Shown: piece after piece, positions 1-54,730 of the stretch
Layout: every line of letters starts with the position of its first letter
How positions within the stretch are numbered: position 1 is the first letter of the stretch
Virus record (IMG/VR): IMGVR_UViG_3300045988_135095
Strand: one strand, 5' to 3'
Length of the DNA: 64,000 nucleotides
Origin: a virus
Notes under the pieces: generated by a model
The model's input: the letters and a program-made list of their open reading frames with translations, nothing else
The model's database searches: none
What the model was told of the DNA's origin: nothing
Translations under genes and position numbers: made by a program

Positions 1-54
1 GGAAAGCGTGTAACCGGCAAAACCGGTTCGGGGGTTCGAATCCCCCTCTTTCCG
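1..54 (+). tRNA. 3' portion of a class-II tRNA, probably tRNA-Ser (truncated by window); attL side of the prophage
   Basis: T-arm GGGGG/TTCGAAT/CCCCC at 30-46. Acceptor 3' strand TCTTTCC at 47-53, discriminator G54, no encoded CCA. Long variable arm AACCGG-CAAAA-CCGGTT at 12-28. G73 plus the long arm favour Ser. The window may open inside the anticodon loop (GGA-AA). Confidence 0.7.
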
Positions 55-125
55 CAGAAAACACTGAAAATTAGGTATTTCCAAAACATCGTATTTTATC
101 CAACTAAGTAGAATCCTGCACATTC

Positions 126-18544: not shown

Positions 18545-21500
18545 CTAAATATCCTTTAATCTTCTGTTCATATCATCCAGCTTGGTTCCGAAGTCATTAT
18601 AGGTGAGCTTTGAATACTTCACGATGTCTTCGAGGTAGCTGTTTGTCATAATCATCATGTTTCTAATCTCCAATACCGCGCCATTGGTTGAAATTCCGAG
18701 TGTAACGATGCTCTCCATCTGTGATATGGTGGTAGTCATGTTCTGAGCGATGGACTCTCCTGCAATCTGCAGGGCGGTGAAGCGACCATTCAGCTCGTCT
18801 GCGGTATCTTGCCCCATAGATGCCCATCCTCCGCTTGTTGCTGTCTGTGATGAGGATGATGAACCGGTGTAGCCAGTTACCTTTGCCCACTCGTCACGTC
18901 TCTTCAAGCCTTCCTGGACTATATCATCGTAACGCTTGTAGAATGCATCTACATCTTCTTTGGTTAGCTTTCCGTTTTTATCCTTCATAGCCTTTGCCCA
19001 ATCATCGTAGAGTTTCTTCAAGTCTCCATTGATAAGGTCTTCCATACTGAAAGAGAGAAGGGACTTCTGCATCTTTTCTGCGAAATCATCTGCCATTTCG
19101 CTAGCAAAGTCGCTACCATCCTTCTTCATGTCCATGAGGTCCGTCAAAAAGCTATCTCTCATTCCACTGAAGGAAATCTGAGTAAGGTTCTCCTTGAACT
19201 GCTCTGACAACTCTTCCAGCTTGCCCGCTTGGTCTATGTAGTCATTCAACTTCTCTGTCAGACGTCCACCATAGTTACCCTTTCCAGTGTTCTCGATATG
19301 CTCCCAGATGGCAACGTTGCCACGGAGGAGCTTCATTTCCTCTGGACTGAGGGAGAAGAGGTCGCCATTGAAGTCTGATTTGACGTTCTTCTTGATCCAA
19401 TCAATCTCCTCACTACCGAAACCGCTCCAATAACGATTCCATGAGTGGTGCGAACCGTGATAGCTTGCCTGTGCCTTGGCGATGTCGAGGTAGTTCTGAT
19501 TAGTCTCCTGCTGATTCTTGTAGGCTTGCTCGTAGTATGAGGTTGCCTTGGAGCCAAAGGAGTTTTCCATTGCATCAGTCAAATCCTCGATGGATTGCTG
19601 CAAGAGGGTATTTCTGTCTGTCAGTCTTTCGATGGTGTCATTGACTTTCTTTGCATTTCCATCTCCACCGAACAGACTATTGAAACCACCGAATGAAAGC
19701 GTGTTGAGGATATGAGAAACATTGTTCCCGATGCTCTTCAATGGCTTCATAACAATGTCACCCGACAAAGCATCATCAAGGATGCCCGTTACTGCGCCAA
19801 AGACCGTATCCATGAGGTTGCTTATGAGTGTTCCGAAGCCATCTTTCAGAATATCAAGGATGCCGAGTATTGCGGAGATTATTTCTCCTGCCATACCGCT
19901 ATCCCCTAAAGCTTTCGTCAGAGCCTTGGCTGCGTCGCTGTCTTTACCGAGTAACCCTTGGATTCCCTTTGCAAGCGTGTTGGCAACGTCCTTCTGCATG
20001 TTACCTCCGAAAAGCTTGTCAAGTCCTAGAATGGAGTTTCCTATGCCTTTGAGTGACCCCGATGTGAGACCCTGCAAACCATTTTCAAGCTGCTGGAACT
20101 GAGAAACTGCCTTCTGTGCAGATGTCTGTAAGTCTGATGATGCCTTCTGAACTGATGAACCGAACTCCAAAACGTTGTTAGATGCGGTAGCAAGTACGCC
20201 CTGCGCTCTAGAGAGGTTGCTTTCAGCCTTGCTGATACTTGTCTTGTCACCGCTCTTCTTAGCCTTGGCGAGGTCTTCCTGCGCCTTGGTAACGGCTTTC
20301 GTGGCTTCAATCTCTCGCTCTTGTGCGTCAATATAGCCCTGCATGGCTGACTGATAGGAGTTGATATCGTCAGAGACCTTCTTGAAAATGTCACTATCCC
20401 AGACGGTGGCAGAGCCTTGTAACTTGGAGATAAGTTCCTGTATGGTCTTCTGCTCATTAACATCTGTTGTGCTCTTGGAGAGTTCTTGCAGCTTCTCAAT
20501 GGTAGGCTCCAGTTGGTCCTTGAACATAGCTCCGAAGTCTCCGAAGATGCTTCCCCAATCGATGTTCTGTCTGATGGCATTTATCTCGATGGTTTGGAGG
20601 TCCTTCTTTCTCTGCTGCTGAAGAGAGAGCTTTTCGCCTTTCGTCTGAGCCTTGGCAATCTTCTCTTCGTACTCCTCGGCAATGGCTTGCTTCTGCTGAT
20701 AGAGAGAACCATACTCCTTCAAGTAGTCACGCATAGAGGTGAGGGCTTCCCTGTTGACCTCATCAAGCTTCTTGTTATACTCTTGGGTAGCGAGGTCTCT
20801 AGCCTTGGAGAGAGCATTGGACTGAGCAGAGGTAAGGGTTACTTTCTTGCCAGCTTCCTTGTTCTTCTTCTTGAACTCTGCTTCCTGCTTGTCAATCTCG
20901 GCATTGCGCTTAGCATAGTCGTTCTTGATTTGAGCAAGCTTCTTCTCCGTGCCTTCCTGCATCTGAGATATATCGGTGTCGATATTTTCCTGCTGCAGCT
21001 GCTTCAAATCCTCGTTCAGTTCCTCCTGGGCCTTCTTGCGGTCTTCTGCTAGTTTCTTGGCATCGGCGGCTGCTTTCTTGGCTTTGGAAGCGTTCTTCTT
21101 TGCGTTTGCTTCTGCCTCTTCCTTTTCGCGACGCTTCTGCTTAGCATCGTCTTCTGCCTTGGTCTGCTTGGTGTTGGCTGCATTGGTATAATCCCATCCT
21201 CGCTGGGCAATATCGTTGGTTGACATCCATTTGCCATTGACTAGCGCACCTGACTTCTTGTTGTTTGCAAGGTCGCGTGCCAAAGCAGAGAAGTACTTAC
21301 CTAAGCGTCCCAGTTCCGGAATATTCATATTCTGCATCCACGATGGTATCTTGGCATCGAAGTTGACGTGGAAGTTGATGTTGTTCTCGGAATAGTTCTG
21401 CATGAACTCCTTGACACGGTTGTAGAGAACGTGTACATCCTCACCGGCACCCTGGAGTTGTTTCTGCAAAGCGTTTATCCTTCCCTTGGTAGAATCGACC

Positions 21501-23293
21501 TTGTTGCCGAAATCCTCGGTAGCATCTGCCGCCTGATTGATATTATCTGCCTCTTCACTATGCAGTTTTTTTGCAGCTCGAAGCTCATAGAGATAACCAA
21601 TCAATGCCTTCCTGGCATCGCTTGTTTTGTCTCCTGTAAAACCGAAAGTATTAGCAAGCTTTTCAGATTCGGATATCAAAGAAGCTTCCAGCTGATTGTA
21701 TTGTTTCAGATATTTCTGATACTCCTTTGAGTGCTCATTCAAGCCAGCCATCTTCTGTGTTAGGTCATCAAACTGCTTGATAACCGAGTCAGATACGATG
21801 TTCTGTATGCCGACGGCTATACCGCTGCTAGAGGTTCCATAATCCTTCAACTTACCCAAAAGGGCTTGCTGAGCGCTATCAACACGGTTGTTGTATTCTT
21901 CATTAGCCTTGGAGATTGCATTGGCTCTGTTGCGCTCTGTAGCCTCCAGCTTGATTTGCTCGACGAGTTCTTTAGATTTATCTATCTCCTGCTGCTTAAC
22001 ATCCACAAGGTTGCTCTCGTCTTCCTTGATCTTGTCAATAGCAATCCCGTAGTTGTCATAGATGTTTGACAGCTCCTTGATGGTGTCCTTGTAAACCTTG
22101 GAGCCTTCCTTTGCAGTCTTCAGAATGGAGATTAGCGACTCGACCTTGCTTGATGCTTCATTTGCACTCTCGGTAAACTTGGAAGTCTTGGTAGCGGCAT
22201 CCTCAGCGCTATTGCCGAATAGATTGAACATCGTGACTCCAGCTGCTACTGCACCAAGAACCAGACCGAGAACATTTGAAGAAGAGACCAAATTGAACAG
22301 AGCCATGGCATCCTTGGCGGTTGTGATAGACTTCGCTAAAGACAAGAATGCTTTCGCACTCTCCCAAGCTACCTGTGCCTTAGATATTGCTATCATCGTT
22401 ATCACTGCAGCCTTGTATGCTCCATACGCTGCAACAACAGTCATGAGTACCTTGCCTACCGTCTCCCAATTCTCAACAAGGGTGGAAACGACTCCCAATC
22501 CGGTATTGATAACACCCTCCTGGGATTTGCCGAGGTCATTGAACATCTGCTCGATGGCATCCTCAATGTTGCTTATCTGACCGGTAATAGTCTTGGACTG
22601 GGCTTCCATCAAGCCACCGAACTTGCTACCCTCGGCGGTCATACTCTGCATTGCCTGGATGAAGATGTCACTGGTAACCTTGCCTGCCTTGATTTGCTTC
22701 TGTACCTCCTTGATGGCGTTGGTAACGTCAAGCCCCATAACCTTGGCTATCTCATCTGCGATAGGAATACCTCGGTTGAGGAACTGATACAGGTCCATCG
22801 TGTCCATCTTACCCTTGGCGATGGTAGTGCCGTAAAGCATCACAAGGTCTTTAAGGTTCAGACCCATACCTGCTGCAACGTCTCCCAATCCGATAAGCGT
22901 CTTGTTGACATCCTCGGCTGCTACGTTGAACGCAAGAAGCTGCTTGGCTCCCTCTGTAACGTCTTCAACCCCGAAAGGTGTGACGGCTGCCGTGCGGATC
23001 AACTGCTTCATGAGAGCATCAGCTTTCTCCTCAGACTGCAACATCGTCTTGAATGCCATTTCTGTCTGCTGGAACTGACCGCGGACCTGCATCATCTGAT
23101 TGACGAACTTGCCGATGCTCCAACCGCCAATGGCAATGTTCATGCTGTTCTGTATATTCGAGATTACATCGTCAATAGACTTTCCGTCCTTCTCAACCCT
23201 CTCGGCAGTCTGATGAACTGCGTTCTGAATGTCTCGAAAACCGGAAACGACCTTGGCTGTCTCGACTATTGTATCGAATTTAATGCTTGGCAT
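18545..23293 (-). CDS. Tail tape measure protein
   Basis: 1582 aa, the longest ORF. TP901-type core near the N-terminus (..AFKTMLQSEEKADALMKQLIRTAAVTPFGVEDV..), a coiled-coil K/E/A-rich centre, and canonical position. Confidence 0.9.
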   Translation of the reverse strand: MPSIKFDTIVETAKVVSGFRDIQNAVHQTAERVEKDGKSIDDVISNIQNSMNIAIGGWSIGKFVNQMMQVRGQFQQTEMAFKTMLQSEEKADALMKQLIRTAAVTPFGVEDVTEGAKQLLAFNVAAEDVNKTLIGLGDVAAGMGLNLKDLVMLYGTTIAKGKMDTMDLYQFLNRGIPIADEIAKVMGLDVTNAIKEVQKQIKAGKVTSDIFIQAMQSMTAEGSKFGGLMEAQSKTITGQISNIEDAIEQMFNDLGKSQEGVINTGLGVVSTLVENWETVGKVLMTVVAAYGAYKAAVITMIAISKAQVAWESAKAFLSLAKSITTAKDAMALFNLVSSSNVLGLVLGAVAAGVTMFNLFGNSAEDAATKTSKFTESANEASSKVESLISILKTAKEGSKVYKDTIKELSNIYDNYGIAIDKIKEDESNLVDVKQQEIDKSKELVEQIKLEATERNRANAISKANEEYNNRVDSAQQALLGKLKDYGTSSSGIAVGIQNIVSDSVIKQFDDLTQKMAGLNEHSKEYQKYLKQYNQLEASLISESEKLANTFGFTGDKTSDARKALIGYLYELRAAKKLHSEEADNINQAADATEDFGNKVDSTKGRINALQKQLQGAGEDVHVLYNRVKEFMQNYSENNINFHVNFDAKIPSWMQNMNIPELGRLGKYFSALARDLANNKKSGALVNGKWMSTNDIAQRGWDYTNAANTKQTKAEDDAKQKRREKEEAEANAKKNASKAKKAAADAKKLAEDRKKAQEELNEDLKQLQQENIDTDISQMQEGTEKKLAQIKNDYAKRNAEIDKQEAEFKKKNKEAGKKVTLTSAQSNALSKARDLATQEYNKKLDEVNREALTSMRDYLKEYGSLYQQKQAIAEEYEEKIAKAQTKGEKLSLQQQRKKDLQTIEINAIRQNIDWGSIFGDFGAMFKDQLEPTIEKLQELSKSTTDVNEQKTIQELISKLQGSATVWDSDIFKKVSDDINSYQSAMQGYIDAQEREIEATKAVTKAQEDLAKAKKSGDKTSISKAESNLSRAQGVLATASNNVLEFGSSVQKASSDLQTSAQKAVSQFQQLENGLQGLTSGSLKGIGNSILGLDKLFGGNMQKDVANTLAKGIQGLLGKDSDAAKALTKALGDSGMAGEIISAILGILDILKDGFGTLISNLMDTVFGAVTGILDDALSGDIVMKPLKSIGNNVSHILNTLSFGGFNSLFGGDGNAKKVNDTIERLTDRNTLLQQSIEDLTDAMENSFGSKATSYYEQAYKNQQETNQNYLDIAKAQASYHGSHHSWNRYWSGFGSEEIDWIKKNVKSDFNGDLFSLSPEEMKLLRGNVAIWEHIENTGKGNYGGRLTEKLNDYIDQAGKLEELSEQFKENLTQISFSGMRDSFLTDLMDMKKDGSDFASEMADDFAEKMQKSLLSFSMEDLINGDLKKLYDDWAKAMKDKNGKLTKEDVDAFYKRYDDIVQEGLKRRDEWAKVTGYTGSSSSSQTATSGGWASMGQDTADELNGRFTALQIAGESIAQNMTTTISQMESIVTLGISTNGAVLEIRNMMIMTNSYLEDIVKYSKLTYNDFGTKLDDMNRRLKDI

Positions 23294-23404: not shown

Positions 23405-24115
23405 TTAAATCTCGGTCTCTGACTCTATCACCGCCTTCATGACCGCCTCCTTGTTGTTGCCATCGATGACCTCTTCCCCTGCTGCCGGTATATGTGCTTT
23501 CTTCCTCTCCTCGTCAGACAGATAGATTGAAGTAATCTTGTCTTTGAGCATGAGAGTCAGGTTGTTATACGATATTCCCCATACCACGTAATCGAAAGTC
23601 CATCCGTATCTTTCGCAAGCGGCATCTATGAGAGTTCCCCATATTGTCTTGCCTCCGAAGATAAAGCTATTCTCCGACTTCTTTGCCGCGTTGACTTTTG
23701 CCATACGCTTCGCTTCTTCTTCCATTCCTGTCTCTTTGGCTATTGTCTGGTATGAGTTAGCCTTAAGGATGATGATGAGGAGAGTGGCTATATCCTCGTT
23801 GGAACATTCTTTGAAGATTAACTCCGTCTGCCTGCTTACGCATTTGGAGTCTAGTATTTCATTCTTTGTGTTGAGTGAGTGATATGCAATCAATCTGCAG
23901 CATGTCTCCCTTTTGGTGTTTGCAACTCGCAATGCTTCCAAGAATGGATCAGCTTGAAGTAACTCTTTGTCTAGCTCCAAGCTATCTACTAACTGCGACG
24001 TTAGGTACATCATGCCCAGTGTAGTAGGGTAGATGTTAACGTGAGCGTGCTCAGTATCAAAGCCTATCGGCATATCTGTGAGCGTATTCGATATAATGAT
24101 TCCTAACTCTTCCAT
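23405..24115 (-). CDS. Tail assembly chaperone-position protein
   Basis: 236 aa from the ATG at 24115. The track start at 24172 would run through the tRNA-like gene. It lies between the major tail and tape measure genes. Confidence 0.55.
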   Translation of the reverse strand: MEELGIIISNTLTDMPIGFDTEHAHVNIYPTTLGMMYLTSQLVDSLELDKELLQADPFLEALRVANTKRETCCRLIAYHSLNTKNEILDSKCVSRQTELIFKECSNEDIATLLIIILKANSYQTIAKETGMEEEAKRMAKVNAAKKSENSFIFGGKTIWGTLIDAACERYGWTFDYVVWGISYNNLTLMLKDKITSIYLSDEERKKAHIPAAGEEVIDGNNKEAVMKAVIESETEI

Positions 24116-24135
24116 ATCACTCGAATTTAAATTGT

Positions 24136-24248
24136 TGGCACCCAAGGCAGGACTCGAACCTGCGACTTTCAACCAGCTTTTGAAGACCCTGGATTTTTTT
24201 GCATGCGACGGACTATTTGGTCTCGCTCTGCCCCTGAGCTACTTGGGT
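24136..24248 (-). tRNA. Aberrant 113-nt tRNA-like gene with encoded CCA; anticodon unassignable
   Basis: On the minus strand: acceptor ACCCAAG/CTTGGGT; D-arm GCTC-AGGGGCA-GAGC; T-arm GCAGG-TTCGAGT-CCTGC; discriminator G plus CCA. There are 61 nt between the D- and T-arms, against ~23 in class I and up to ~39 in class II tRNAs. Confidence 0.6.
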
Positions 24249-24252
24249 AGGT

Positions 24253-24278
24253 TGCCGGCTGATAACCCTCAGTCGGCA
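24253..24278 (-). other. 10-bp hairpin between major tail gene and tRNA-like gene
   Basis: TGCCGGCTGA-TAACCC-TCAGTCGGCA with one G.T pair. No U-tract follows. It could be an attenuator or a processing site. Confidence 0.5.
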
Positions 24279-24298
24279 GAAGGGATATTAGGATATGC

Positions 24299-24880
24299 CT
24301 ATGTCTCTGCGTATGTTTCCGTGATTTCAGCAGGAGGGGTCTCACCATCCTGCGGCTTCTTGAAAGTCAAGGAATACTTTCCACCTGTTCCCTTTGTGGC
24401 AGTAATGACACGCCAGCGGTAAGCACAATAGACTTCCTCACCCTTTGCGTTTGTAGTCTTAGCCACCACGTCACCCTCCGGAATGAGAGCTGCGTGGGTA
24501 TAAGTGATGGAAGCACCTTCTTCTGTTGTATAGCCCTCCTCGGCACCGATGGTGGTATTACCCATGTAAACGCCAGGAAGCTCGGCGTCTTCTGGCTGGA
24601 TAGCCAAACGGTAGTTACCCTCAATGATACCATCAATAGTCTTGAATGGCTGCGACTGGTTCTTCTTGATGAAGAGCTGATATACAGCCTCGTAGGTGGA
24701 CTTCTTTGTCTTGCGGTCAACAATTCCGCCACCTTCCTCAACCTGAGTCATAGTATCGCCTTTCGTTGGAGTAACAGTAGTAGTGCCATCCTTTGGAGTT
24801 GGGAGCTTAGTCCACTCATTCTTTTTGCTACCTACCTCTTGAACGTAGATAGTGCATTTGCCCCATGATGTTACTGACAT
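24299..24880 (-). CDS. Major tail protein (by position)
   Basis: 193 aa, upstream of the chaperone and tape measure genes. Beta-rich composition. Confidence 0.6.
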   Translation of the reverse strand: MSVTSWGKCTIYVQEVGSKKNEWTKLPTPKDGTTTVTPTKGDTMTQVEEGGGIVDRKTKKSTYEAVYQLFIKKNQSQPFKTIDGIIEGNYRLAIQPEDAELPGVYMGNTTIGAEEGYTTEEGASITYTHAALIPEGDVVAKTTNAKGEEVYCAYRWRVITATKGTGGKYSLTFKKPQDGETPPAEITETYAET

Positions 24881-28995: not shown

Positions 28996-29460
28996 TTAAT
29001 CTGGATAATTGAGCTTATCCGGTCCAGCTGTGGATAGATATACGGAGAACATATCACATAGCTCTTTTGCTCCTTTTAAGTCGTTGAGCTTGTAATTACC
29101 GCATTCCACTTCCGATGCACCTGGAATCGTCTTTGATAGCGAACAAGCCTTGAAGGCTTCTACTATCATTTCCTTTATGAGCTTTGAAGTCCACGTACCT
29201 TTAAGGATAAGATAGAAACCTGTAAGACATCCCATTGGTCCAAAATACAGAACGGAATTGCTAAGAGGACTATCATTTCGTAGGTAGTCCGCCATCAAAT
29301 GCTCTATTGTGTGCGCGACAGCAGGTGACATCATATCTTTGTTTGGCTTGCACACGCGAATATCGAATGTGGTAGCAGTCTCCATGCCCCATTTATCTAC
29401 TCTCGAAACATAAAGACCTGGCTTCAGTTTCGTATGATCAACTTTAAAACTTGGTATCAT
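28996..29460 (-). CDS. luxS: S-ribosylhomocysteine lyase (AI-2 synthase)
   Basis: 154 aa. Metal-ligand motif HTIEHL and GPMGCLTGFY are both present. The sequence aligns by eye with LuxS over its whole length. Confidence 0.9.
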   Translation of the reverse strand: MIPSFKVDHTKLKPGLYVSRVDKWGMETATTFDIRVCKPNKDMMSPAVAHTIEHLMADYLRNDSPLSNSVLYFGPMGCLTGFYLILKGTWTSKLIKEMIVEAFKACSLSKTIPGASEVECGNYKLNDLKGAKELCDMFSVYLSTAGPDKLNYPD

Positions 29461-30103
29461 TCTCTAATAATTTACAAACAACACTAAATGCCTTTTCGGC
29501 AAGACTATCCCAAAAACCTGCATACTGCTCGGTCTGGTTCGGCTCCAGGGAATTATCGCTAATAACTCGGATGGACGTAAAACCGATACCCTTCTTGTAG
29601 CATACCTGCGCGAGAGCAGCAGACTCCATGTCAATAGCACATACGTTATAAGAATTAGGAAGAAAATCCTTAATCGCCAATACCTGCTCTCTCGTGGTGA
29701 CAAACTTATCTCCCGTAGCTATAGTTCCTAGTCTGAATCTTTCATCCATATCAATCCAGGAGAAATCAGAAGGAAAGACTGCCGGCATACCTTGAACTTG
29801 TCCATTGGCATTCGGTTCGCCGCAATATACATCGTGGTAACAGTACGAATTACCTATTACGACATTACCTGGCTTTAAACCAGCAACGGCAGCACCTGCG
29901 CATCCTACCGAGATAACTCTTGTAACTTTGCTGGACGTATTCGACGAAAGAAATTCTGTCAAGCAAGATGCCGCATTAACCTTGCCAATACCAGACTTGA
30001 TTAAAGCTATGTTTTGAACATTTTTGTAGTCAAGCCAATTCTTTGCAATCCATTCGCTGATAAGGTCATATTCCTTATCCATAGCGGTAACTATGACAAT
30101 CAT
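29444..30103 (-). CDS. mtnN: 5'-methylthioadenosine/S-adenosylhomocysteine nucleosidase
   Basis: 219 aa. Contains N-terminal ..VTAMDKE.., ..SVGCAG.., ..IDMESAALAQV.. and ..IRVISDN.., which are the MTAN catalytic Glu/Asp motifs. It overlaps luxS by 17 nt. Confidence 0.9.
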   Translation of the reverse strand: MIVIVTAMDKEYDLISEWIAKNWLDYKNVQNIALIKSGIGKVNAASCLTEFLSSNTSSKVTRVISVGCAGAAVAGLKPGNVVIGNSYCYHDVYCGEPNANGQVQGMPAVFPSDFSWIDMDERFRLGTIATGDKFVTTREQVLAIKDFLPNSYNVCAIDMESAALAQVCYKKGIGFTSIRVISDNSLEPNQTEQYAGFWDSLAEKAFSVVCKLLENDTKF

Positions 30104-44277: not shown

Positions 44278-46026
44278 TTACGAATTTAATTTGTTGGAAA
44301 TCAGAGAGTTAGATTTGAGGTAAGCGATAAACTTATCAAGCATTCTTGACGTTCGCTCTCTAATATCCGTTTCTGTAAAATCTGTCAACGTCTGTGACAG
44401 CATTCGTAATTCGTGTATCTTAGTTCCAATCCTCTCGCCTGTGGATTTGAACTCACCATTATAATACTTAATCTTGTCAGCAAATCTGTAATCGGATGCC
44501 CGAATATTAACTCTTCGCTCCAATACCGATTTGTTTCCCAACATTTCAAGAACCTCGTCACTCGACAATCCACCTTCCTTGACTTGTCTGTTCCTTGGGA
44601 AGATGTGCTCAATGTCATATGTTGCGTCAAGAGGAAGCAATTCCTGGCTATCGAAAGAGAATGCCCACCACACAATCATCGACTTCGTAATCGCACGAGT
44701 GTTTGAAAAACTGAAGTTGGTAAATTGCGAACGGAACAATTCCTCTTGGAATAGATAGTTCTCGAAAGCAATCTCTTTGTTCTCTATGATATTCACCATC
44801 TCATTGAATACCGGTGCTCGCAAGGCTGTTATTCCTGGGTTGCTGATAGCATATGCCCAAATAAAGCCTATCAAACGATTCAAGAACAAATAGAACTTCT
44901 CGTTGTCTAGCATATTCTCAGCATTCTTATAGTGCATGAAATATACTGATACGATATATGTCCATAAACTGTTAGGCGCATAATTCAATACAAACAAGCG
45001 CTTTAGTACATCCACGGAAAAACGATCTTCGTTCTGAGAATATACATCTTTCCAGAAGTCCGCAAGCAAGACTAGATTCTCTAAAGTCTGCTCTCGTCGA
45101 AGTAGAACATATCCATCTTTCTCATAGAACTTACGAAGTCCTTCTGTCATAGAACTACGATTAGTCAGCAATGCCCTCTCGTAGTACATATAGCGTGTAA
45201 ACAACTCATCCAAAGGTGTTCCACGATATGGGTGGAATATTTTTGTAACGAGTTCGTCAAGCTCTTTCCATGTAGTGATAAACTCTTCCTTCTTTCCGAT
45301 GGATGAGTAGAACTTATAGAGCTGTGCCTTGAAGATGTCTGAGTCAGACAATGGCTTACCTCTATCATTAAGCGTCGAGAATATCCTAAGAGCAGTATCT
45401 TGCGATTCTGCCTCTATTGGAAGTAGCACACAGTTATTGAGTATGCGAGCTGGATATAATGCAAAGAAAGAAGGATATTCTTCAATGAATTTTCCTATCT
45501 TGTCTTGAAAGTATCTGAAGTTGGCAGCATACCGGCTTTTCCCTTCTGATGTTCCTTTCCGGAGTATATCCATAAACTCTTCCTTGTCGTTATCAGTTGC
45601 AACCTCCGAATTTATCTTCAAGTCGTTTGGATCATACTCTCCGAACTCATTTGCTCTCCAAATGCACTTTTCTATGTCCTCTCGCATCTTGATAGAACGA
45701 TTGTCTTTCATGTGCTCCAGGCGATTGTAGAAAGCTCGCAGTAAGAGAAGCAAGGTCGTAAGACGCTGCTGACCGTCAATGATTTCAAGTTTCCCTTCGT
45801 CATTACGGAATGTTACTATAGGACCGAGAAAGTAACTCTCTGAAGAATCGAAGCTGTCGCAGTTGTTATTCGGGAATGAAAAGGAAAATAAGTCTTCCCA
45901 TAAGACCTTACATTCGTCTTCTCCCCAAGCATACGGACGCTGATAATCAGGAATCAAGAACGTAGCTTTTTTATCTTGAAAAAGATACTTTACGTTCTTT
46001 TGATCTACTATAAGCTTTGATGACAT
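44278..46026 (-). CDS. GmrSD-family type IV (modification-dependent) restriction endonuclease (DUF262 + DUF1524)
   Basis: 582 aa. N-terminal ..IPDYQRPYAW.. and ..IIDGQQRLTTL.. (DUF262). C-terminal His-Me finger ..YDIEHIFPRN..LGNKSVLERRVN.. (DUF1524). Confidence 0.85.
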   Translation of the reverse strand: MSSKLIVDQKNVKYLFQDKKATFLIPDYQRPYAWGEDECKVLWEDLFSFSFPNNNCDSFDSSESYFLGPIVTFRNDEGKLEIIDGQQRLTTLLLLLRAFYNRLEHMKDNRSIKMREDIEKCIWRANEFGEYDPNDLKINSEVATDNDKEEFMDILRKGTSEGKSRYAANFRYFQDKIGKFIEEYPSFFALYPARILNNCVLLPIEAESQDTALRIFSTLNDRGKPLSDSDIFKAQLYKFYSSIGKKEEFITTWKELDELVTKIFHPYRGTPLDELFTRYMYYERALLTNRSSMTEGLRKFYEKDGYVLLRREQTLENLVLLADFWKDVYSQNEDRFSVDVLKRLFVLNYAPNSLWTYIVSVYFMHYKNAENMLDNEKFYLFLNRLIGFIWAYAISNPGITALRAPVFNEMVNIIENKEIAFENYLFQEELFRSQFTNFSFSNTRAITKSMIVWWAFSFDSQELLPLDATYDIEHIFPRNRQVKEGGLSSDEVLEMLGNKSVLERRVNIRASDYRFADKIKYYNGEFKSTGERIGTKIHELRMLSQTLTDFTETDIRERTSRMLDKFIAYLKSNSLISNKLNS

Positions 46027-47002: not shown

Positions 47003-47158
47003 TTATTTCTTCTTGAATTTATAGTTTGGGCAGCTTCTCTTGTTTCCCATCACAAGCAGTACCGGGAACAGCAGACCGTGCCTGCAACCATTTCCGTGCT
47101 CGTCAGCAGCCTCGCAAGAGAAGCAGCCGTAATACTCGTTAATATTTAATGCTGCCAT
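47003..47158 (-). CDS. Mini-gene (51 aa), Cys-rich
   Basis: Hand translation MAALNINEYYGCFSCEAADEHGNGCRHGLLFPVLLVMGNKRSCPNYKFKKK. TAATG overlap with the ligase stop. Confidence 0.4.
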   Translation of the reverse strand: MAALNINEYYGCFSCEAADEHGNGCRHGLLFPVLLVMGNKRSCPNYKFKKK

Positions 47159-47952
47159 TATTCGTAATCCCTAATGTTCAACAATACTGGAAATCTCGGT
47201 ACTCCAGCGTCAGAATACCCTTGATGCTGAACAGTCGCCGCCATACCTATCAACTCGTCCTTATCGGCTAAGTATTGAGCTCTGAGTGACCTTGAACCTA
47301 CCGGGCGGGCACAGAACTCGTACTCTCCACACTTCAGTTTGAATATAGCGGTACCTGCATCATTGCCCTCCGCTTCCAAAACATCGACCACCTTGAACTC
47401 TGTCGTGTCGAACGATTTCAGCTTCATAAGGTCATTGCTTCTGCCCTCGGTATATGTTCCATCTGCATTTCTGATAATGGCACCCTCGTAACCGGTAGAA
47501 ACGAATATCTTGTGCCATCGCTTGATGTCCTTCTCTGAATGGGCAACGAAAGTCTGCGTAAGGTACACCGGTCCGTTTGGATCAATGGAAGCAAACTCCT
47601 CCTGCAGAACTTTCCATCTGGCAGAAAAGCTTCCCGGAATCTGTGCATCGTAGATAACCATGCGTAGCTTGTCGGTCATAGAAGAACGGCACTTGACGGC
47701 AGAGCATATCTGTTGGAAGGTCAATTCCTGATGGTTGTATATCTCCCCATCCAGAGGAAGCATACCGCGGTGTTTCTCTCCCCAAGCCTTAATCTGAGGA
47801 ACATCATATTCCTTGCCACCTCTCGATGTGAGGTGAATCTCTCCGTCTTCTCCTTCATGAAGGATGCAACGAACTCCATCGTACTTAGGCTGGACGAAGC
47901 AAGGAAATTTCGTCTGTGACGGATAATATCTTGTTGCAAGCATTGGTTTCAT
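47158..47952 (-). CDS. lig: ATP-dependent DNA ligase (minimal phage type)
   Basis: 264 aa. Motif I KYDGVR, motif III LDGEIY, motif IV EGAIIR, motif V LMKLK. Confidence 0.85.
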   Translation of the reverse strand: MKPMLATRYYPSQTKFPCFVQPKYDGVRCILHEGEDGEIHLTSRGGKEYDVPQIKAWGEKHRGMLPLDGEIYNHQELTFQQICSAVKCRSSMTDKLRMVIYDAQIPGSFSARWKVLQEEFASIDPNGPVYLTQTFVAHSEKDIKRWHKIFVSTGYEGAIIRNADGTYTEGRSNDLMKLKSFDTTEFKVVDVLEAEGNDAGTAIFKLKCGEYEFCARPVGSRSLRAQYLADKDELIGMAATVQHQGYSDAGVPRFPVLLNIRDYE

Positions 47953-52912: not shown

Positions 52913-53571
52913 TTCTTATCCTCCTTCTTCTTGGCTGTCTCTCTTGCTACGCGTCTCTCGTCGACAACCTTTTCGATAGCCGCATTATACTTATAGCTCT
53001 TGAAAATCTTGGCGAAACCGGTAACATACTTAAGTTTTACAAGCTCTTTCTGCTCCAGACCTACCTTTTCGCAAATCTCACGCTCAGATACACCATCTCT
53101 GAGCATATTGAAGACGATGTTTACCATTCCATCTACAGAGTGACTTCCACGGGCACGATTATGTCTTACGGTTGATGCCATACGCTGGTCGATGTCCTTG
53201 TCTAGAACTACGATAGGCAGCTTTCCGCCACATCGCTCATTGATGTCCGCAAACTTGCGAATAACGAGGTTTCTGTGGAAACCGTCGATGATTACATACT
53301 TCTGCAGCTTCTCGTCCCAAATGGTAACGATAGGCATAGTGTAACCGTCTTCCCTCACGGATGTATAGAGAAGACGCATTTCCTTATCTGCCACATGGTT
53401 AGGGTTGTAGTTGTTGGCTACAACCATATCCTTGTCAACCCAAAGCACGCAATCTACAGGGTTGACTTTCTCTGGAGATAAGGAACTGATATACTTTCTG
53501 AGGTCGTTCAAAAACTGCACCTTATCCTTGGCAGCATCAAACTCCTTCTTGATGTTCTCTTGAAGATTCAT
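52909..53571 (-). CDS. IbrB-like ParB/Srx-fold protein 2
   Basis: 220 aa. ..VIIDGFHRNLV.. and ..VRHNRARGSH.. It overlaps the PP-loop ATPase gene by 35 nt. Confidence 0.75.
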   Translation of the reverse strand: MNLQENIKKEFDAAKDKVQFLNDLRKYISSLSPEKVNPVDCVLWVDKDMVVANNYNPNHVADKEMRLLYTSVREDGYTMPIVTIWDEKLQKYVIIDGFHRNLVIRKFADINERCGGKLPIVVLDKDIDQRMASTVRHNRARGSHSVDGMVNIVFNMLRDGVSEREICEKVGLEQKELVKLKYVTGFAKIFKSYKYNAAIEKVVDERRVARETAKKKEDKK

Positions 53572-54730
53572 ATTCCTTATTAGCTTTTTCTATTTTAACA
53601 TAATTGTCGCTCAAATACTGACGCAAAGAACGCTCTACGCTCTGAATGCGCTTCATTCCGAAATCTTCCGCAATGACGCAGACAGCGCTGGTATAACCAA
53701 TCTGATGTATTACGTAATCAATACACTCCTGGCAATGCCCGGCTTTAGCTACATTCCTCTTCTTGGCAGAACGGTAGCCTTTCTTGATAGTCTCCGCATT
53801 CTTCTTGTCTTCACAAAGATTGTCTGCGAGATAATCAACGTATTCATCCCAATCCTTGAAATAAGGTGGCAAATTGTAGCAGTATGTTGCTATTTCGTTA
53901 AATACGTGTACAGACGTATTGACGTTTGCAACTCTTCGTACCAACTTGTCGTAGAACCATGGATCCACTTCCTTAATGAAACCTAAGTCGTGGATAGCCT
54001 GCTCATGGATGAGGGAACTTACTCGGCACGCTCTGAGTGGCTTCTGCGTGAACTGATAGTTATAAAGCTTACAGTACGGAAGCTTGTTGCTGAAGATGTA
54101 ATACCATACATCATAAACCTTCCAATCCCAAATAGGGTAGAGCACCAGACTTCTCGGTGTGCCGTCTTTATAATATCCGCCACCACCTCCCCACGTAATA
54201 CCTGGAAGGCACTCACCTCTAGTAAGACCCGACAATCGTGCCGGCGACTCCTCGATACGGACACCACCTAAAGTTAGGTAGTCTTTGCCGAAGAGCATTC
54301 TGTGTACCTGATCAAGGGTCTTGGAGAAATACTGATTGTGCGGAATCTCCAAATCACCATATGAATCTGGTTCCTTCTCACGAATCCACTTTTCTCCTGG
54401 CCCCCATACATTGAACCATTCTCCCTTTGAGGCATTCCATTCCTGGAAGTATGACTGAATCCAATACGGCTCAACCCACGGCAAGTGCATGATGTATCGT
54501 ATGTACTCGATAGTCATTGGAGTCTCTGCCTCTTGGTCTAGGAAGAGGACGGGAATCTTTTCAATTCCCATCTCCTTCATAACCTCGTGCGCAAGGTTGA
54601 GAACCACGGTAGAGTCCTTTCCTCCCGACATCGTCACGACAATCTTACGCTTACCATAAAACTCCCGAAAGATGTATCTGAATCTTTCAAGAGCTGCCTC
54701 ATAAACGTTTTTGTCACTGTAAAATATCAT
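53537..54730 (-). CDS. IbrA-like PAPS-reductase-family PP-loop ATPase
   Basis: 397 aa. PP-loop ..VVTMSGGKDSTVV.. plus a long C-terminal domain as in IbrA/DUF3440-type proteins. Confidence 0.85.
   Translation of the reverse strand: MIFYSDKNVYEAALERFRYIFREFYGKRKIVVTMSGGKDSTVVLNLAHEVMKEMGIEKIPVLFLDQEAETPMTIEYIRYIMHLPWVEPYWIQSYFQEWNASKGEWFNVWGPGEKWIREKEPDSYGDLEIPHNQYFSKTLDQVHRMLFGKDYLTLGGVRIEESPARLSGLTRGECLPGITWGGGGGYYKDGTPRSLVLYPIWDWKVYDVWYYIFSNKLPYCKLYNYQFTQKPLRACRVSSLIHEQAIHDLGFIKEVDPWFYDKLVRRVANVNTSVHVFNEIATYCYNLPPYFKDWDEYVDYLADNLCEDKKNAETIKKGYRSAKKRNVAKAGHCQECIDYVIHQIGYTSAVCVIAEDFGMKRIQSVERSLRQYLSDNYVKIEKANKEYESSREHQEGV

What the first reader, a model, noticed from the sequence alone, without database searches (positions are those of the whole stretch)
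24136..24248. 113-nt tRNA-like gene with perfect acceptor/D/T arms and encoded CCA but ~22-38 extra nucleotides in the anticodon region
Minus-strand sequence: ACCCAAG-TA-GCTC-AGGGGCA-GAGC-[61 nt]-GCAGG-TTCGAGT-CCTGC-CTTGGGT-G-CCA. U8, A14, G18G19, the T54-loop consensus and the 7-bp acceptor stem are all canonical, so this is clearly tRNA-derived. The 61-nt middle section cannot form a standard anticodon arm plus variable region. I can draw three alternative folds:
- AGACC/GGTCT closing a 30-nt A-rich loop (AAATAGTCCGTCGCATGCAAAAAAATCCAG), followed by a 20-nt variable arm. This is an intron-like picture.
- CCAG/CTGG plus T-A, presenting the textbook loop CTTCAAA (anticodon UCA, opal-suppressor/Sec-like) at plus 24179-24185. 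It requires a 32-nt insertion after the D-arm.
- TTCAA/TTGAA with loop AAGCTGG.

The gene sits between the major tail gene and the chaperone gene, preceded by a 10-bp hairpin. Short intervening sequences in bacterial or phage tRNAs are not a known feature, and suppressor tRNAs are known in Bacteroidota phages that recode stop codons.
Basis: partly seen in the sequence, partly recalled or inferred. Interest (0 to 1): 0.7.

Follow-up and report, generated by a model that had tools for sequence, protein, structure and literature searches.

The report
Non-decoding tRNA-like RNA, phage tail operon
A conserved 113-nt RNA in a gut Bacteroidota prophage keeps the upper half of a tRNA, but a small pseudoknot replaces its anticodon arm, so it is not an intron-containing or suppressor tRNA; most likely it is a tRNA-shaped cutting signal, or a small stable RNA, inside the tail-gene messenger.

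Summary
Minus strand 24248-24136 has a perfect 7-bp acceptor stem, D arm, T arm and GCCA, with 61 nt where about 21 are expected. The element is not chance and not decay. It occurs in 281 fetched loci, always between the tail-tube gene and the tail-chaperone gene.

The interpretation does not hold. Comparison of homologues shows two helices in the 61 nt:
- S1 (GAGACC/GGTCTT).
- A 4-bp helix joining the 3' end of S1's loop (CCAG) to CUGG downstream.

Both helices covary. The second has five complementary forms (CCAG/CUGG, CCAC/GUGG, CCUC/GAGG, CCGC/GCGG, CCAU/AUGG). Their a-b-a'-b' order makes them a pseudoknot or alternating helices.

The "CCA" that ARAGORN -i reads as a Trp anticodon is part of this helix and changes between relatives. 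The "CUUCAAA" loop is not conserved. The phage uses all three stop codons as stops.

Related phages carry other tRNA-like forms in the same slot:
- 60-nt forms with no anticodon arm.
- A form with a GUAA-capped stub in its place.
- A degenerate 73-nt form.
- A normal tRNA(CAU).

Only the acceptor/D/T half is conserved. My best explanation, which is inferred, is a tRNA-like RNase P/RNase Z processing site in the late mRNA. I class it as a new variant of a known kind.

The parts
24299..24880 (-). Upstream gene, probable major tail (tube) protein; stop codon TAG at 24301-24299
   Evidence: It lies after the head and connector genes and before the chaperone and tape measure genes. AlphaFold model pLDDT 80. 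The top Foldseek PDB hits are tail-tube proteins (Sf11, lambda gpV, 80alpha) at a weak E of 0.01-0.1. No Pfam or PDB sequence hit.
24253..24278 (-). Conserved hairpin (9-10 bp, loop GGGTTA) ending 4 nt before the tRNA-like 5' end; no U-tract follows it
   Evidence: Sequence. It is present in all expanded-type relatives, with A-U / G-C / A.C variation at one pair. The scan found no terminator-like site here.
24136..24248 (-). The whole tRNA-like element (113 nt, including the encoded GCCA)
24242..24248 (-). Acceptor stem, 5' strand ACCCAAG (A1-U72); N-1 is U
   Evidence: Pairs with 24146-24140. Three of the 7 pairs show double-sided changes across relatives. N-1 is U in 258 of 281 loci.
24225..24239 (-). 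D arm, GCTC-AGGGGCA-GAGC (preceded by U8 A9 at 24241-24240)
   Evidence: The stem is invariant in all relatives. The loop varies (AGGGGCA, AGGGGAA, AGTTGGGA, AGTTGGTTA and others), and GG is kept in all expanded-type relatives.
24219..24224 (-). S1, 5' strand GAGACC (occupies the place of the anticodon stem)
   Evidence: Pairs with 24188-24183. Five of the 6 pairs have compensatory changes. There are at least 8 distinct stem versions.
24193..24218 (-). L1, 26-nt loop AAATAGTCCGTCGCATGCAAAAAAAT; poorly conserved, its A-run varies in length between close relatives, and it ends in a conserved AAAU
24189..24192 (-). PK helix, 5' strand CCAG (the 'CCA' that ARAGORN -i reads as a Trp anticodon)
   Evidence: Always 4/4 complementary to 24176-24173. 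Five complementary forms exist among relatives. RNAalifold recovered the helix on an unsupervised alignment.
24183..24188 (-). S1, 3' strand GGTCTT
24177..24182 (-).
   Evidence: Length 0-8 nt and A-rich in relatives. Not conserved as an anticodon loop.
24173..24176 (-). PK helix, 3' strand CTGG
24164..24172 (-). 9-nt linker TTGAAAGTC to the T arm
   Evidence: Conserved as TTGARAGWC in most relatives.
24147..24163 (-). T arm, GCAGG-TTCGAGT-CCTGC
   Evidence: Relatives show G-C to G.U and to A-U changes in the first pair.
24136..24146 (-). Acceptor 3' strand CTTGGGT, discriminator G73 (24139) and encoded CCA (24138-24136)
   Evidence: CCA is encoded only in the window's clade (230 loci). Other clades have GCTA, ACAT, GCAT, GCAA or ACTA.
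23405..24115 (-). Downstream gene (tail assembly chaperone position); its ATG at 24115 lies 20 nt after the encoded CCA
   Evidence: A homologue lies less than 200 nt downstream of the element in 188/188 loci.
18545..23293 (-). Tape measure protein gene (context)
   Evidence: phrog_9959, E 1e-189.

Best explanation
ANATOMY (shown). The element is a tRNA-derived structured RNA. It keeps a complete tRNA upper half: a 7-bp acceptor stem, U8/A9, a D arm with GG, and a T arm with UUCGAGU. The anticodon arm is replaced by two covarying helices:
- S1, 6 bp, directly after the D stem, closing a 30-nt loop.
- A 4-bp helix between the last four loop nucleotides (CCAG) and CUGG, which lies 6 nt downstream of S1.

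Their order along the sequence is a-b-a'-b'. So they form an H-type pseudoknot with an A-rich third loop, or two alternating conformers. The element has no conserved anticodon and cannot decode.

FUNCTION (inferred). The element is transcribed as part of the late structural operon, between the abundant tail-tube gene and the low-copy chaperone and tape measure genes. The host tRNA-processing enzymes recognise it through the acceptor/T/D 'elbow'.
1. RNase P cuts at its 5' end.
2. RNase Z, or RNase E plus exonucleases in the CCA-encoding clade, cuts at its 3' end.
3. This splits the polycistronic mRNA in two.
4. The upstream tail-tube mRNA then ends a few nucleotides after a stable hairpin.
5. 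The downstream mRNA starts with a 5'-monophosphate and a leader of 1-24 nt.
6. The two halves can therefore have different stability and translation.

A small, stable tRNA-like RNA is released as a by-product and may have a role of its own. The pseudoknot keeps the RNA compact and tRNA-sized while excluding it from translation.
For: Structure:
- 98.5% of cells are paired on a condensed alignment of 16 distinct variants. Eleven pairs show double-sided changes. None of 500 shuffles reaches this, and slid controls give 29-51% paired.
- There are 13 S1/PK combinations, and PK is 4/4 complementary in all but one lineage.
- There are five PK forms.
- RNAalifold on an unsupervised MAFFT alignment recovers the acceptor, D and T stems and the CCAN/NUGG helix.
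- Cloverleaf plus S1 is -26.9 kcal/mol. The PK duplex adds about -5.5, which together matches the nested MFE of -31.9.

Only the upper half is conserved:
- The upper half is 78-94% identical between phages whose flanking genes are 68-76% identical. The middle is 52-82% identical.
- In the same slot, L215 and L334-336 have about 60-nt forms with a 7-10-nt linker in place of the anticodon arm.
- L331-333 has a 3-bp stem with a GUAA loop there.
- L325/326 has a degenerate 73-nt form.
- All of these have different but fully complementary acceptor stems.
- The Prevotella-phage clade has a regular tRNA(CAU) scoring 52-59 bits with a covarying anticodon stem.
- The Rfam tRNA model matches the expanded relatives at 42-47 bits by skipping the middle.

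Fixed position in cis:
- 184/184 and 188/188 loci have the same neighbours.
- Every tail-tube homologue locus examined, down to 39% amino-acid identity, has a tRNA or tRNA-like element in this slot.
- There is no room for a promoter. I saw no Bacteroidota-type TAnnTTTG motif by eye in the 150 nt upstream, and there is no terminator.
- N-1 is U in 258/281 loci. From my own knowledge, U is the residue bacterial RNase P prefers at this position.
- The start codon of the downstream gene lies 1-24 nt after N73. In L405-408 it starts one nucleotide after N73.

Established knowledge (my own):
- RNase P, RNase Z and the CCA-adding enzyme need only the acceptor/T (and elbow) half of a tRNA.
- mascRNA, a processed tRNA-like RNA without a conserved anticodon loop, is described in PMC9976931.
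- Plant mitochondrial t-elements that form mRNA ends are described in PMC1920247 (abstract).
Against: - There is no transcript or cleavage data. The function is inferred from anatomy and synteny only.
- The upstream hairpin is missing in the mini-element lineages (L215, L331). So 'hairpin-protected 3' end' cannot be the universal logic.
- A pure processing signal does not explain why the expanded lineages keep a covarying pseudoknot and the AAAUCC motif. L329 has the motif without the PK partner. That suggests an extra function for the middle domain.
- Loop lengths in some variants are short for a simultaneous H-type fold: L327 has 0-3 nt between S1 and PK3'. The two helices may therefore alternate rather than coexist.
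- The register of the S1 3' strand in my condensed alignment was chosen by best fit. That inflates the S1 pairing somewhat.
- The identification of the upstream gene as the tail tube rests on position and weak fold matches.
Confidence: 0.5

Rival explanations
1. The important product is the released tRNA-like small RNA acting in trans. It could be a decoy or sponge for a host protein that binds the tRNA elbow or acceptor: a tRNA-targeting defence nuclease, a CCA-end-modifying toxin, a modification enzyme or TrpRS. The pseudoknot could present a fixed 'anticodon-codon-like' helix. The position in the tail operon would then only provide late timing.
For: - The pseudoknot and the AAAUCC motif are maintained by selection, which a bare cleavage signal does not need.
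- A1-U72, G73, A9 and a CCA triplet resemble part of the bacterial Trp identity set (PMC9976931).
- GCCA is encoded in the window's clade.
- mascRNA is a precedent for a processed tRNA-like RNA with a trans function.
Against: - Relatives replace the middle domain with nothing, or with a GNRA stub. They also change the triplet to CCU or CCG. No specific anticodon-side ligand is therefore conserved.
- Acceptor pairs 2-5 are C-G, C-G, C-G and A-U, not the G-C pairs of the Trp identity set.
- The strict linkage to one intergenic slot over deep divergence is unusual for a trans-acting gene.
- CCA is not encoded outside one clade.
Confidence: 0.2
2. It is a cis-acting translational or structural element for the chaperone gene. 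The folded tRNA-like domain sits 1-24 nt upstream of the start codon and sets how the ribosome loads on this Shine-Dalgarno-less mRNA, with or without cleavage.
For: The distance to the start codon is short and bounded in all lineages. In L405-408 the ATG starts one nucleotide after N73.
Against: - This does not explain why the structure must be specifically tRNA-shaped, with T-loop and D-loop consensus kept in most lineages.
- The spacing varies 20-fold.
- It overlaps largely with the best explanation, because processing would create the short leader.
Confidence: 0.1
3. It is a real tRNA-Trp(CCA) gene interrupted by a 25-nt intervening sequence. The sequence is removed by an unknown phage or host activity, and the product is a class-II-like decoding tRNA.
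For: - ARAGORN -i at default thresholds calls tRNA-Trp(CCA) with intron AAATAGTCCGTCGCATGCAAAAAAA. It makes the same call in many relatives.
- A1-U72, G73 and A9 fit Trp.
- Other phage tRNA genes with short insertions exist.
Against: - The triplet is CCU in L327 and CCG in L398. ARAGORN gives Arg and Asn for L327 and L329.
- The triplet is 0-5 nt from the stem instead of a fixed 2 nt.
- The triplet and its 3' neighbour covary with a downstream complement.
- Position 37 would be G, C or U.
- The 'variable arm' is not conserved.
- Slot homologues lack any anticodon arm.
- At 25 nt it is far below group I intron size. I could draw no bulge-helix-bulge motif by eye.
- None of the 20 prophage ORFs scanned against Pfam hit an RNA ligase or a splicing endonuclease.
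Confidence: 0.04
4. It is an opal (UCA) or ochre (UUA) suppressor, or a Sec-like tRNA, used for stop-codon recoding.
For: The loop-like string CTTCAAA at 24179-24185, and a C/T polymorphism (CTTTAAA) in some relatives.
Against: - The string lies across the S1 3' strand and L3 and is not conserved.
- The flanking 'stem' has mismatches.
- All three stop codons terminate late ORFs, and ORFs of up to 1582 aa are intact in the standard code.
- It has no 8/5 acceptor/T architecture and no 6-bp D stem, which Sec tRNAs have.
- The C/T change keeps a U.G pair in an alternative helix.
Confidence: 0.01
5. It is a decaying tRNA pseudogene with no function.
For: Default tRNA finders reject it. The A-run length is polymorphic.
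Against: - The upper half is more conserved than the neighbouring coding DNA.
- There are compensatory changes in all helices.
- The element persists in one slot across phages whose tail-tube proteins are as little as 39% identical.
Confidence: 0.03

Closest known systems
mascRNA / MALAT1 (and MEN-beta) tRNA-like 3'-end processing elements of mammals
   Same: It is a tRNA-like cloverleaf embedded in a longer transcript. It has no conserved anticodon loop and is not aminoacylated. RNase P and RNase Z recognise it, so cleavage both forms the end of the upstream RNA and releases a small tRNA-like RNA (PMC9976931; mechanism from my own knowledge). The 60-nt mini forms in L215 and L331-336 are of mascRNA size.
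   Different: The setting is bacterial and phage, between two protein-coding genes of an operon. The upstream 3' end would be protected by a plain hairpin where one is present, not a triple helix. The window's version carries a pseudoknot instead of a short anticodon stem. Cleavage has not been shown here.
Plant mitochondrial t-elements and the mitochondrial tRNA punctuation model
   Same: tRNA-like structures or tRNAs between coding regions define mRNA 5' and 3' ends through RNase P/Z (PMC1920247 abstract; punctuation model from my own knowledge). A degenerate anticodon region is tolerated.
   Different: Those are organellar systems. Here the element occupies a single fixed slot in a phage late operon and has a conserved pseudoknot variant.
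Bacterial tRNA-mRNA co-transcripts and RNase P cleavage within operon mRNAs (e.g. the thrU-tyrU-glyT-thrT-tufB operon; intercistronic RNase P sites in tna, his, rbs)
   Same: Host tRNA-processing enzymes cut polycistronic transcripts and uncouple the stability of the cistrons (my own knowledge). The Prevotella-phage clade, with a genuine tRNA(CAU) in the slot, is exactly this situation.
   Different: In the window the tRNA has lost its decoding parts, yet it is retained.
Plant-virus 3' tRNA-like structures (TYMV, TMV and BMV types) and tmRNA
   Same: These are tRNA mimics that combine an acceptor/T-arm module with pseudoknots. They are recognised by RNase P and the CCA-adding enzyme (my own knowledge; a related paper is listed).
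   Different: In viral TLSs the pseudoknot builds the acceptor arm. In tmRNA the pseudoknots flank a tag ORF and there is no D stem. Here the acceptor, D and T arms are ordinary and the pseudoknot replaces the anticodon arm. ARAGORN's tmRNA mode finds nothing.
Phage P1/P7 C4 and satellite P4 CI RNAs; T4 'species 1 and 2' RNAs
   Different: They are antisense or immunity regulators, or lie in tRNA clusters. None is known at a tail-tube/chaperone junction, and none has this architecture.
Bacterial Y-RNA-like YrlA (tRNA-like module)
   Same: It is a non-coding RNA with T-arm and D-arm mimicry.
   Different: In YrlA the RNA ends lie in the Ro-binding stem, not in an acceptor stem. There was no Rfam YrlA hit on the element.

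Membership tests
Canonical decoding tRNA | 7-bp acceptor stem, U8, D arm with G18G19, T arm with the T-loop consensus | tested here: met
   The stems covary.
Canonical decoding tRNA | 5-bp anticodon stem closing a 7-nt loop with U33, a purine at 37, and an anticodon conserved among orthologues | tested here: not met
   S1 closes a loop of 18-34 nt. The candidate triplet varies (CCA, CCU, CCG), its spacing to the stem is 0-5 nt, and it is paired to a downstream partner. Slot homologues lack the arm altogether.
Canonical decoding tRNA | Recognised by tRNA finders or the Rfam tRNA model at curated thresholds | tested here: not met
   For the window: ARAGORN default finds none, Rfam at gathering thresholds finds none, and the tRNA model gives 14 bits against a cut-off of 29. 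Relatives reach 42-47 bits only because the model skips the middle.
Intron-containing tRNA (bacterial group I type) | A self-splicing group I intron (about 200 nt or more, P1-P9 core) in the anticodon loop | tested here: not met
   The extra sequence is 25-40 nt. There is no Rfam intron hit.
Intron-containing tRNA (archaeal/eukaryal endonuclease type) | A bulge-helix-bulge motif at the exon-intron junctions, and the same mature tRNA after excision in all orthologues | tested here: not met
   ARAGORN -i gives Trp, Arg or Asn, with different junctions, in orthologues. I could draw no BHB motif by inspection; I did not run a dedicated BHB search. The host is a Bacteroidota-type lysogen, judging from the integrase domains.
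Suppressor / Sec tRNA | A conserved anticodon loop with UCA (or UUA/CUA); for Sec, an 8/5 acceptor/T architecture and a long D stem; recoded genes in the genome | tested here: not met
   CTTCAAA is not conserved. The architecture is 7/5 with a 4-bp D stem. TAA, TAG and TGA are all used as stops, and long ORFs are intact.
tmRNA | A tRNA-like domain plus a tag reading frame and pseudoknots | tested here: not met
   ARAGORN -m finds nothing. L1 is 14-30 nt, and I saw no tag reading frame in it.
tRNA-like processing element (mascRNA / t-element kind) | The acceptor/T/D upper half is conserved while the anticodon domain is dispensable or free to vary | tested here: met
tRNA-like processing element (mascRNA / t-element kind) | Embedded in a longer transcript between functional units | tested here: inconclusive
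   The position is fixed between two co-oriented genes. The gaps are 50 nt upstream and 20 nt downstream. No terminator was detected. I saw no Bacteroidota-type promoter motif by eye; the promoter scan used is sigma-70-type and does not cover it. There are no transcript data.
tRNA-like processing element (mascRNA / t-element kind) | Actual cleavage by RNase P at +1 and by RNase Z/E at the 3' end | not testable with these tools
   The only indirect evidence is U at N-1 in 258/281 loci and an intact acceptor/T stack.
H-type RNA pseudoknot | Two helices in a-b-a'-b' order, each supported by covariation | tested here: met
   S1 has 5 of 6 pairs, and PK has 2 of 4 pairs, with double-sided changes. 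There are five PK forms. PK was recovered independently by RNAalifold.
H-type RNA pseudoknot | Connecting loops long enough for both helices to form at once | tested here: inconclusive
   In the window L1 is 26 nt, L2 is 0 nt and L3 is 6 nt for a 6-bp S1, which is plausible. L327 has 0-3 nt for L3, which is doubtful. No 3D modelling was done.
Bacterial tRNA-Trp (as the evolutionary source) | G73, A1-U72, G2-C71 to G5-C68, A9, C34C35A36 (PMC9976931) | tested here: inconclusive
   A1-U72, G73, A9 and a CCA triplet are present. Pairs 2-5 are C-G, C-G, C-G and A-U. No normal-length tRNA with the same T arm and acceptor stem was found in IMG/VR.

The most novel reading that the evidence does not exclude
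The element may not be merely a cleavage signal. After RNase P/Z release it would be a stable tRNA-shaped RNA whose pseudo-anticodon is permanently paired to a built-in 'codon'. S1 stacked on the 4-bp CCAN/NUGG helix would have about the length of an anticodon arm bound to mRNA. Phages would use it late in infection as a molecular decoy or ligand for a host tRNA-binding factor, for example a tRNA-directed defence nuclease or toxin, or a ribosomal tRNA site. The mini forms in sister phages would be stripped-down versions of the same decoy.
Probability: 0.12. Interest if true: 0.85.

Novelty: new variant of a known kind. Interest (0 to 1): 0.6.

Why it matters
tRNA-like elements that punctuate transcripts are textbook for mitochondria and for MALAT1. 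I know of no described family of non-decoding tRNA-like elements fixed at one junction of a phage structural operon, and seven full-text literature searches found none.

This family is abundant in human-gut viromes. It occurs in more than 100 IMG/VR contigs and many ENA and Logan assemblies. It also forms a natural series:
- a genuine tRNA;
- a degenerate tRNA;
- a form without an anticodon arm;
- a GNRA-capped stub;
- a pseudoknot-expanded form.

That series shows which half of a tRNA the selective pressure acts on.

If the processing model is right, it gives a simple, testable way in which Bacteroidota siphophages set the tube:chaperone:tape-measure expression ratio. These hosts largely lack Shine-Dalgarno-based control.

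There is also a practical point for annotation. Intron-aware tRNA finders will mislabel these elements as intron-containing tRNA-Trp, tRNA-Arg or tRNA-Asn, and that could seed false claims of tRNA introns or recoding.

Tried and rejected
- Default ARAGORN and Rfam gathering scans of the window found nothing.
- The Rfam E-value scan of 24000-24400 gave only weak chance-level hits. DABA-DC-AT on the opposite strand over the hairpin scored 19.5 bits against a cut-off of 56. tRNA scored 14 bits.
- The single-sequence MFE is not better than shuffles (z = -0.64), and it mis-folds the D arm. It is uninformative because of the pseudoknot.
- The phage GenBank collection holds only one relative, at 70% identity and unannotated.
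- Species-representative genomes gave 3 loci. One is a Prevotella vespertina prophage. One, from Thermodesulfobacteriota, is irrelevant.
- P0104 as a query against IMG/VR found nothing.
- A search for a normal-length tRNA with the same T arm and acceptor stem, as a possible parent gene, found nothing in IMG/VR.
- The tail-tube profile has no PDB sequence match and no Pfam match.
- MAFFT mis-aligns the variable middle. I therefore used anchor-based segmentation and a condensed equal-length alignment.
It is absent in L327 and L328 and mismatched in L218.
- A link between this element and the '[hairpin]-ACAGCAA' insertions in other phage tRNAs was considered. I found no sequence or positional homology, so I dropped it.
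- Seven literature searches found no description of this element.
Full report
1. THE OBSERVATION

The minus strand of 24248-24136 reads ACCCAAG-TA-GCTC-AGGGGCA-GAGC-[61 nt]-GCAGG-TTCGAGT-CCTGC-CTTGGGT-G-CCA, exactly as reported. Standard detectors miss it:
- ARAGORN in its default mode finds no tRNA in the whole window.
- Rfam at gathering thresholds finds nothing.
- The Rfam tRNA model gives only a 14-bit partial match.

ARAGORN with intron search, run in the sandbox, calls a tRNA-Trp(CCA) of 88 nt plus a 25-nt 'intron' (AAATAGTCCGTCGCATGCAAAAAAA) after position 32, with a long 'variable arm'.

A 9-10-bp hairpin (24278-24253) ends 4 nt before position +1.

The neighbouring genes are these:
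- 24299-24880. Its predicted structure best matches phage tail-tube proteins, though weakly.
- 23405-24115, in the chaperone position.
- The tape measure gene.

The window is a temperate Bacteroidota-type phage:
- Positions 1-57 are the 3' part of a host class-II tRNA.
- An integrase with Arm-DNA-bind_5 and Phage_int_SAM_5 domains follows directly.

2. IT IS A CONSERVED ELEMENT AT A FIXED PLACE

The 3' 28-mer occurs in 104 IMG/VR contigs, and all of them carry the whole element. I found further copies through tail-tube protein relatives in IMG/VR, ENA, Logan, GTDB genomes and metagenomes. In total 281 fetched loci have it.

Wherever enough DNA is present, a tail-tube homologue ends less than 200 nt upstream (184/184 loci). 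A chaperone homologue starts less than 200 nt downstream (188/188 loci).

Between phages whose flanking genes are 68-76% identical in DNA, the acceptor/D/T half of the element is 78-94% identical. The 61-nt middle is only 52-82% identical.

3. WHAT THE MIDDLE REALLY IS

I segmented all variants by fixed anchors: the end of the D stem, the last YCC before the 3' strand, and the start of the T stem. This gives one common plan:
- S1 5' strand: the 6 nt right after GAGC.
- L1: 14-30 nt, poorly conserved. Its A-run varies from A6 to A10 among near-identical phages, and it ends in AAAU.
- A 4-nt strand, CCAG.
- 0-5 nt.
- S1 3' strand.
- L3: an A-rich connector of 0-8 nt.
- A 4-nt strand, CUGG.
- A 9-nt linker, TTGARAGWC.
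- The T arm.

S1 exists in at least eight versions:
- GAGACC/GGTCTT
- GAGGCC/GGCCTT
- GAGGTC/GACCTT
- AAGGTC/GACCTT
- AAGGCC/GGCCTT
- ATGGTC/GACCAT
- TTCCC/GGGAA
- a 9-bp stem in L329

The 4-nt strands are perfectly complementary in every lineage but L329. They occur in five forms: CCAG/CUGG, CCAC/GUGG, CCUC/GAGG, CCGC/GCGG and CCAU/AUGG.

Covariation statistics support both helices. On a condensed, gap-free alignment of 16 distinct variants:
- 98.5% of cells pair.
- 11 of 26 pairs show changes on both sides, including 5 of 6 in S1 and 2 of 4 in PK.
- None of 500 shuffles reaches these values.
- Sliding the partners by 1-3 columns drops pairing to 29-51%.

One caveat applies. The S1 3' register was picked by best fit. 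The PK strands were not.

RNAalifold gives an independent check. On an unsupervised MAFFT alignment of 12 diverse full-length sequences it predicts the acceptor, D and T stems, and it picks the CCAN/NUGG helix as the only nested helix in the middle.

S1 and PK interleave in the order a-b-a'-b'. Together they form an H-type pseudoknot, or two alternating conformers. For the window, cloverleaf plus S1 is -26.9 kcal/mol, and the PK duplex adds about -5.5. That equals the best nested fold of -31.9.

4. WHY IT IS NOT A DECODING TRNA

- The 'anticodon' that ARAGORN reads is the PK 5' strand.
  - It is CCA, CCU or CCG in different relatives.
  - It sits 0-5 nt from the stem.
  - Its 3' neighbour covaries with the base before NGG.
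  - ARAGORN accordingly assigns Trp, Arg or Asn to orthologues.
It is not conserved.
- The third proposed fold (TTCAA/TTGAA) is missing in L327 and L328 and mismatched in L218.
- The late genes use TAA (14), TAG (5) and TGA (4) as stops, and ORFs of up to 1582 codons are intact. Nothing calls for a suppressor.
- The extra 25-40 nt is far too short for a group I intron.
- I could draw no bulge-helix-bulge motif.
- No RNA ligase or splicing endonuclease appeared among the 20 prophage ORFs scanned against Pfam.

5. WHAT SISTER PHAGES HAVE IN THE SAME SLOT

This is the most informative result. More distant tail-tube relatives, at 58-39% amino-acid identity, have one of the following between the same two genes.

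(i) About 60-nt elements with acceptor, D and T arms but only a 7-10-nt linker in place of the anticodon arm:
   - L215: GCCCACG TA GCTC AGAGGTA GAGT TATAAAA GAGG TTCGAGT CCTC A CGTGGGC
   - L334-336: ACCCGTG ... GAGC GTGTAAGGTC GGCGG ...

(ii) An element whose anticodon arm is a 3-bp stem capped by GUAA (L331-333).

(iii) A 73-nt degenerate cloverleaf with T loop UCCGAGU, which no detector accepts (L325/326).

(iv) In a clade of Prevotella phages and prophages, including P. vespertina A2879, a normal-looking tRNA(CAU). Rfam scores it 52-59 bits, and its anticodon stem covaries while the CAU is conserved.

(v) Other expanded or odd forms: L192, with the same D and T arms but another acceptor stem and middle, and L194, with an 8-nt anticodon loop.

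The acceptor stems differ between these lineages but are always complementary. So the slot has held a tRNA-shaped RNA throughout the divergence of this phage group. Only the acceptor/T/D upper half is under constant selection.

6. MECHANISM

The upper half of a tRNA is what RNase P, RNase Z and the CCA-adding enzyme recognise (established knowledge, my own).

The element lies inside the late operon:
- It is 50 nt after the tail-tube stop codon and 20 nt before the chaperone start codon.
- No terminator was detected.
- By eye I saw no Bacteroidota-type promoter motif in the 150 nt upstream. The promoter scan used is sigma-70-type and does not cover such promoters.

The residue before +1 is U in 258 of 281 loci.

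I therefore think the element works as a tRNA-like processing site:
1. RNase P cuts at 24248/24249. The tail-tube mRNA then ends just after the conserved hairpin.
2. RNase Z, or RNase E plus trimming where CCA is encoded, cuts after G73/CCA.
3. The chaperone and tape-measure mRNA then starts with a 5'-monophosphate and a short leader.
4. The two halves acquire different stabilities and translation rates. This matches the very different amounts of tube protein and of chaperone or tape measure that a virion needs.

These steps are inferred. None is shown.

Two observations fit the model. The leader length is bounded at 1-24 nt. In L405-408 the start codon begins one nucleotide after N73, so cleavage there would give an almost leaderless mRNA.

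Three observations do not fit a bare cleavage signal:
- The mini lineages lack the upstream hairpin.
- The expanded lineages preserve a pseudoknot and the AAAUCC motif.
- L329 keeps AAAUCCA without a PK partner.

The middle domain may therefore serve the released RNA (stability, exclusion from translation, or a trans function). That is my main rival explanation.

7. COMPARISON WITH KNOWN SYSTEMS

The element works most like three things:
- mascRNA/MALAT1, a processed tRNA-like RNA without a conserved anticodon loop that is not aminoacylated (PMC9976931).
- Plant mitochondrial t-elements (PMC1920247).
- Bacterial tRNA-mRNA co-transcripts.

It resembles plant-virus TLSs and tmRNA in combining tRNA mimicry with pseudoknots. 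But here the pseudoknot replaces the anticodon arm, not the acceptor arm, and there is no tag ORF.

It fails the defining tests for a decoding tRNA, an intron-containing tRNA, a suppressor or Sec tRNA, a tmRNA and YrlA (see the membership table).

It may descend from a tRNA-Trp, since it has A1-U72, G73, A9 and CCA. But pairs 2-5 do not match the Trp identity set, and no parent gene was found.

Seven full-text searches found no description of such elements.

8. VERDICT

- The interpretation as an intron-bearing or suppressor tRNA is not supported.
- The element is a real, selected, non-decoding tRNA-like RNA with a covariation-supported pseudoknot. It belongs to a previously undescribed series of tRNA-like elements fixed at the tail-tube/chaperone junction of a group of gut and oral Bacteroidota siphophages.
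- The function as an RNase P/Z punctuation site is the best-supported inference, at about 0.5. A trans-acting role for the released RNA is the main alternative.
- Novelty: a new variant of a known kind.
- Interest: 0.6.

Noticed in passing
L261 2120-2236 and 2242-2355; also L222, L223, L235, L238, L239, L249, L255, L274, L294, L299, L304, L308, L320 (IMG/VR contigs unrelated to the window): Many phage contigs have tRNA arrays in which several tRNAs each carry an insertion of about 45 nt with a common plan: [6-8-bp hairpin]-(A/T)AC(A/T)GCAA-(A/T-rich, about 10 nt). In several tRNAs (Asn GUU, Thr GGU, Ile GAU, Pro UGG) the insertion sits inside the 5' strand of the anticodon stem, between nt 28 and 29. 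The anticodon loop stays canonical, and pairs 27-28/42-43 stay complementary. The Rfam tRNA model still scores about 45 bits. Plain ARAGORN misses them. I saw no bulge-helix-bulge motif, and there is no Rfam ribozyme hit. This looks like an undescribed class of short intervening or mobile sequences in phage tRNA genes, and it deserves its own study.
   Followed up: partly
window 1-57 and 119-1436: The window starts inside a host class-II tRNA gene (variable arm GTAACCGGCAAAACCGGTTC, T arm GGGGG-TTCGAAT-CCCCC, acceptor 3' strand TCTTTCC, G73). Three TTGCACA(T/A)TTT repeats follow at 119-150, then a tyrosine integrase gene (126-1436; Arm-DNA-bind_5, Phage_int_SAM_5). This is probably the attL end of a prophage integrated at a tRNA (Ser-like) gene.
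   Followed up: partly
window 28996-29460 (-) and 29444-30103 (-): The prophage encodes LuxS (PF02664, E 3.6e-48) next to a PNP_UDP_1 phosphorylase (Pfs/MTA-SAH nucleosidase-like, E 2.4e-31). These are the two enzymes of AI-2 synthesis. They lie just upstream of the head genes.
   Followed up: no
window 44278-46026 (-), 47158-47952 (-), 53537-54730 (-), 58131-59402 (-): Accessory genes in the prophage: a GmrSD-type restriction endonuclease, a small ATP-dependent DNA ligase (264 aa), a PAPS-reductase/DUF3440 protein and a PcfJ-like protein.
   Followed up: no
window 24193-24218 (-) and the homologous position in L001-L185: The A-run in loop L1 differs in length (A6 to A10, or GCATGAAAAT / GCATAAAAAT) among otherwise nearly identical phages. 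This looks like slippage in an unconstrained loop, or possibly a tunable spacer of the pseudoknot.
   Followed up: partly
window 24263-24290 (-): The conserved CCCTT(C) just upstream of the hairpin is complementary to GAGGG, which spans the end of the hairpin's 5' strand and its loop. Lineages with CCTT have GAGG (L221, L327). This may be a second small pseudoknot or an alternative pairing in front of the tRNA-like element.
   Followed up: no
L405-L408, about 1905-1915: In this lineage the chaperone start codon begins one nucleotide after the discriminator base of the tRNA-like element (…CTTGGGC-G-C-ATGAATGAATTAGGA…). Cleavage at the 3' end of the element would therefore leave an almost leaderless mRNA.
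   Followed up: partly
L192 2063-2171; L194 2064-2136: Within the Prevotella-phage clade, one contig has a 110-nt expanded tRNA-like element. Its D and T arms are identical to those of the window's element, but its acceptor stem and middle differ (it has duplicated GCTAC motifs). In L192 a different gene follows the element. Another contig has a tRNA with an 8-nt anticodon loop (CTCATAAA).
   Followed up: no
L187-L214 (tRNA at e.g. L189 2079-2150): The slot tRNA(CAU) of the Prevotella-phage clade has a C1.A72 mismatch, as bacterial initiator tRNA does, but it lacks the three G-C pairs of the initiator anticodon stem. Its identity (initiator-like, elongator Met or Ile2) is unclear.
   Followed up: no
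L329 1826-1921: This variant has a 9-bp stem, no PK 3' partner, and a loop made of three ATYCCNCA-like repeats (ATTCCTCA ATCCTCCA AAATCCA). The C/U-rich single-stranded loop is reminiscent of an sRNA seed or an anti-Shine-Dalgarno-like sequence.
   Followed up: no
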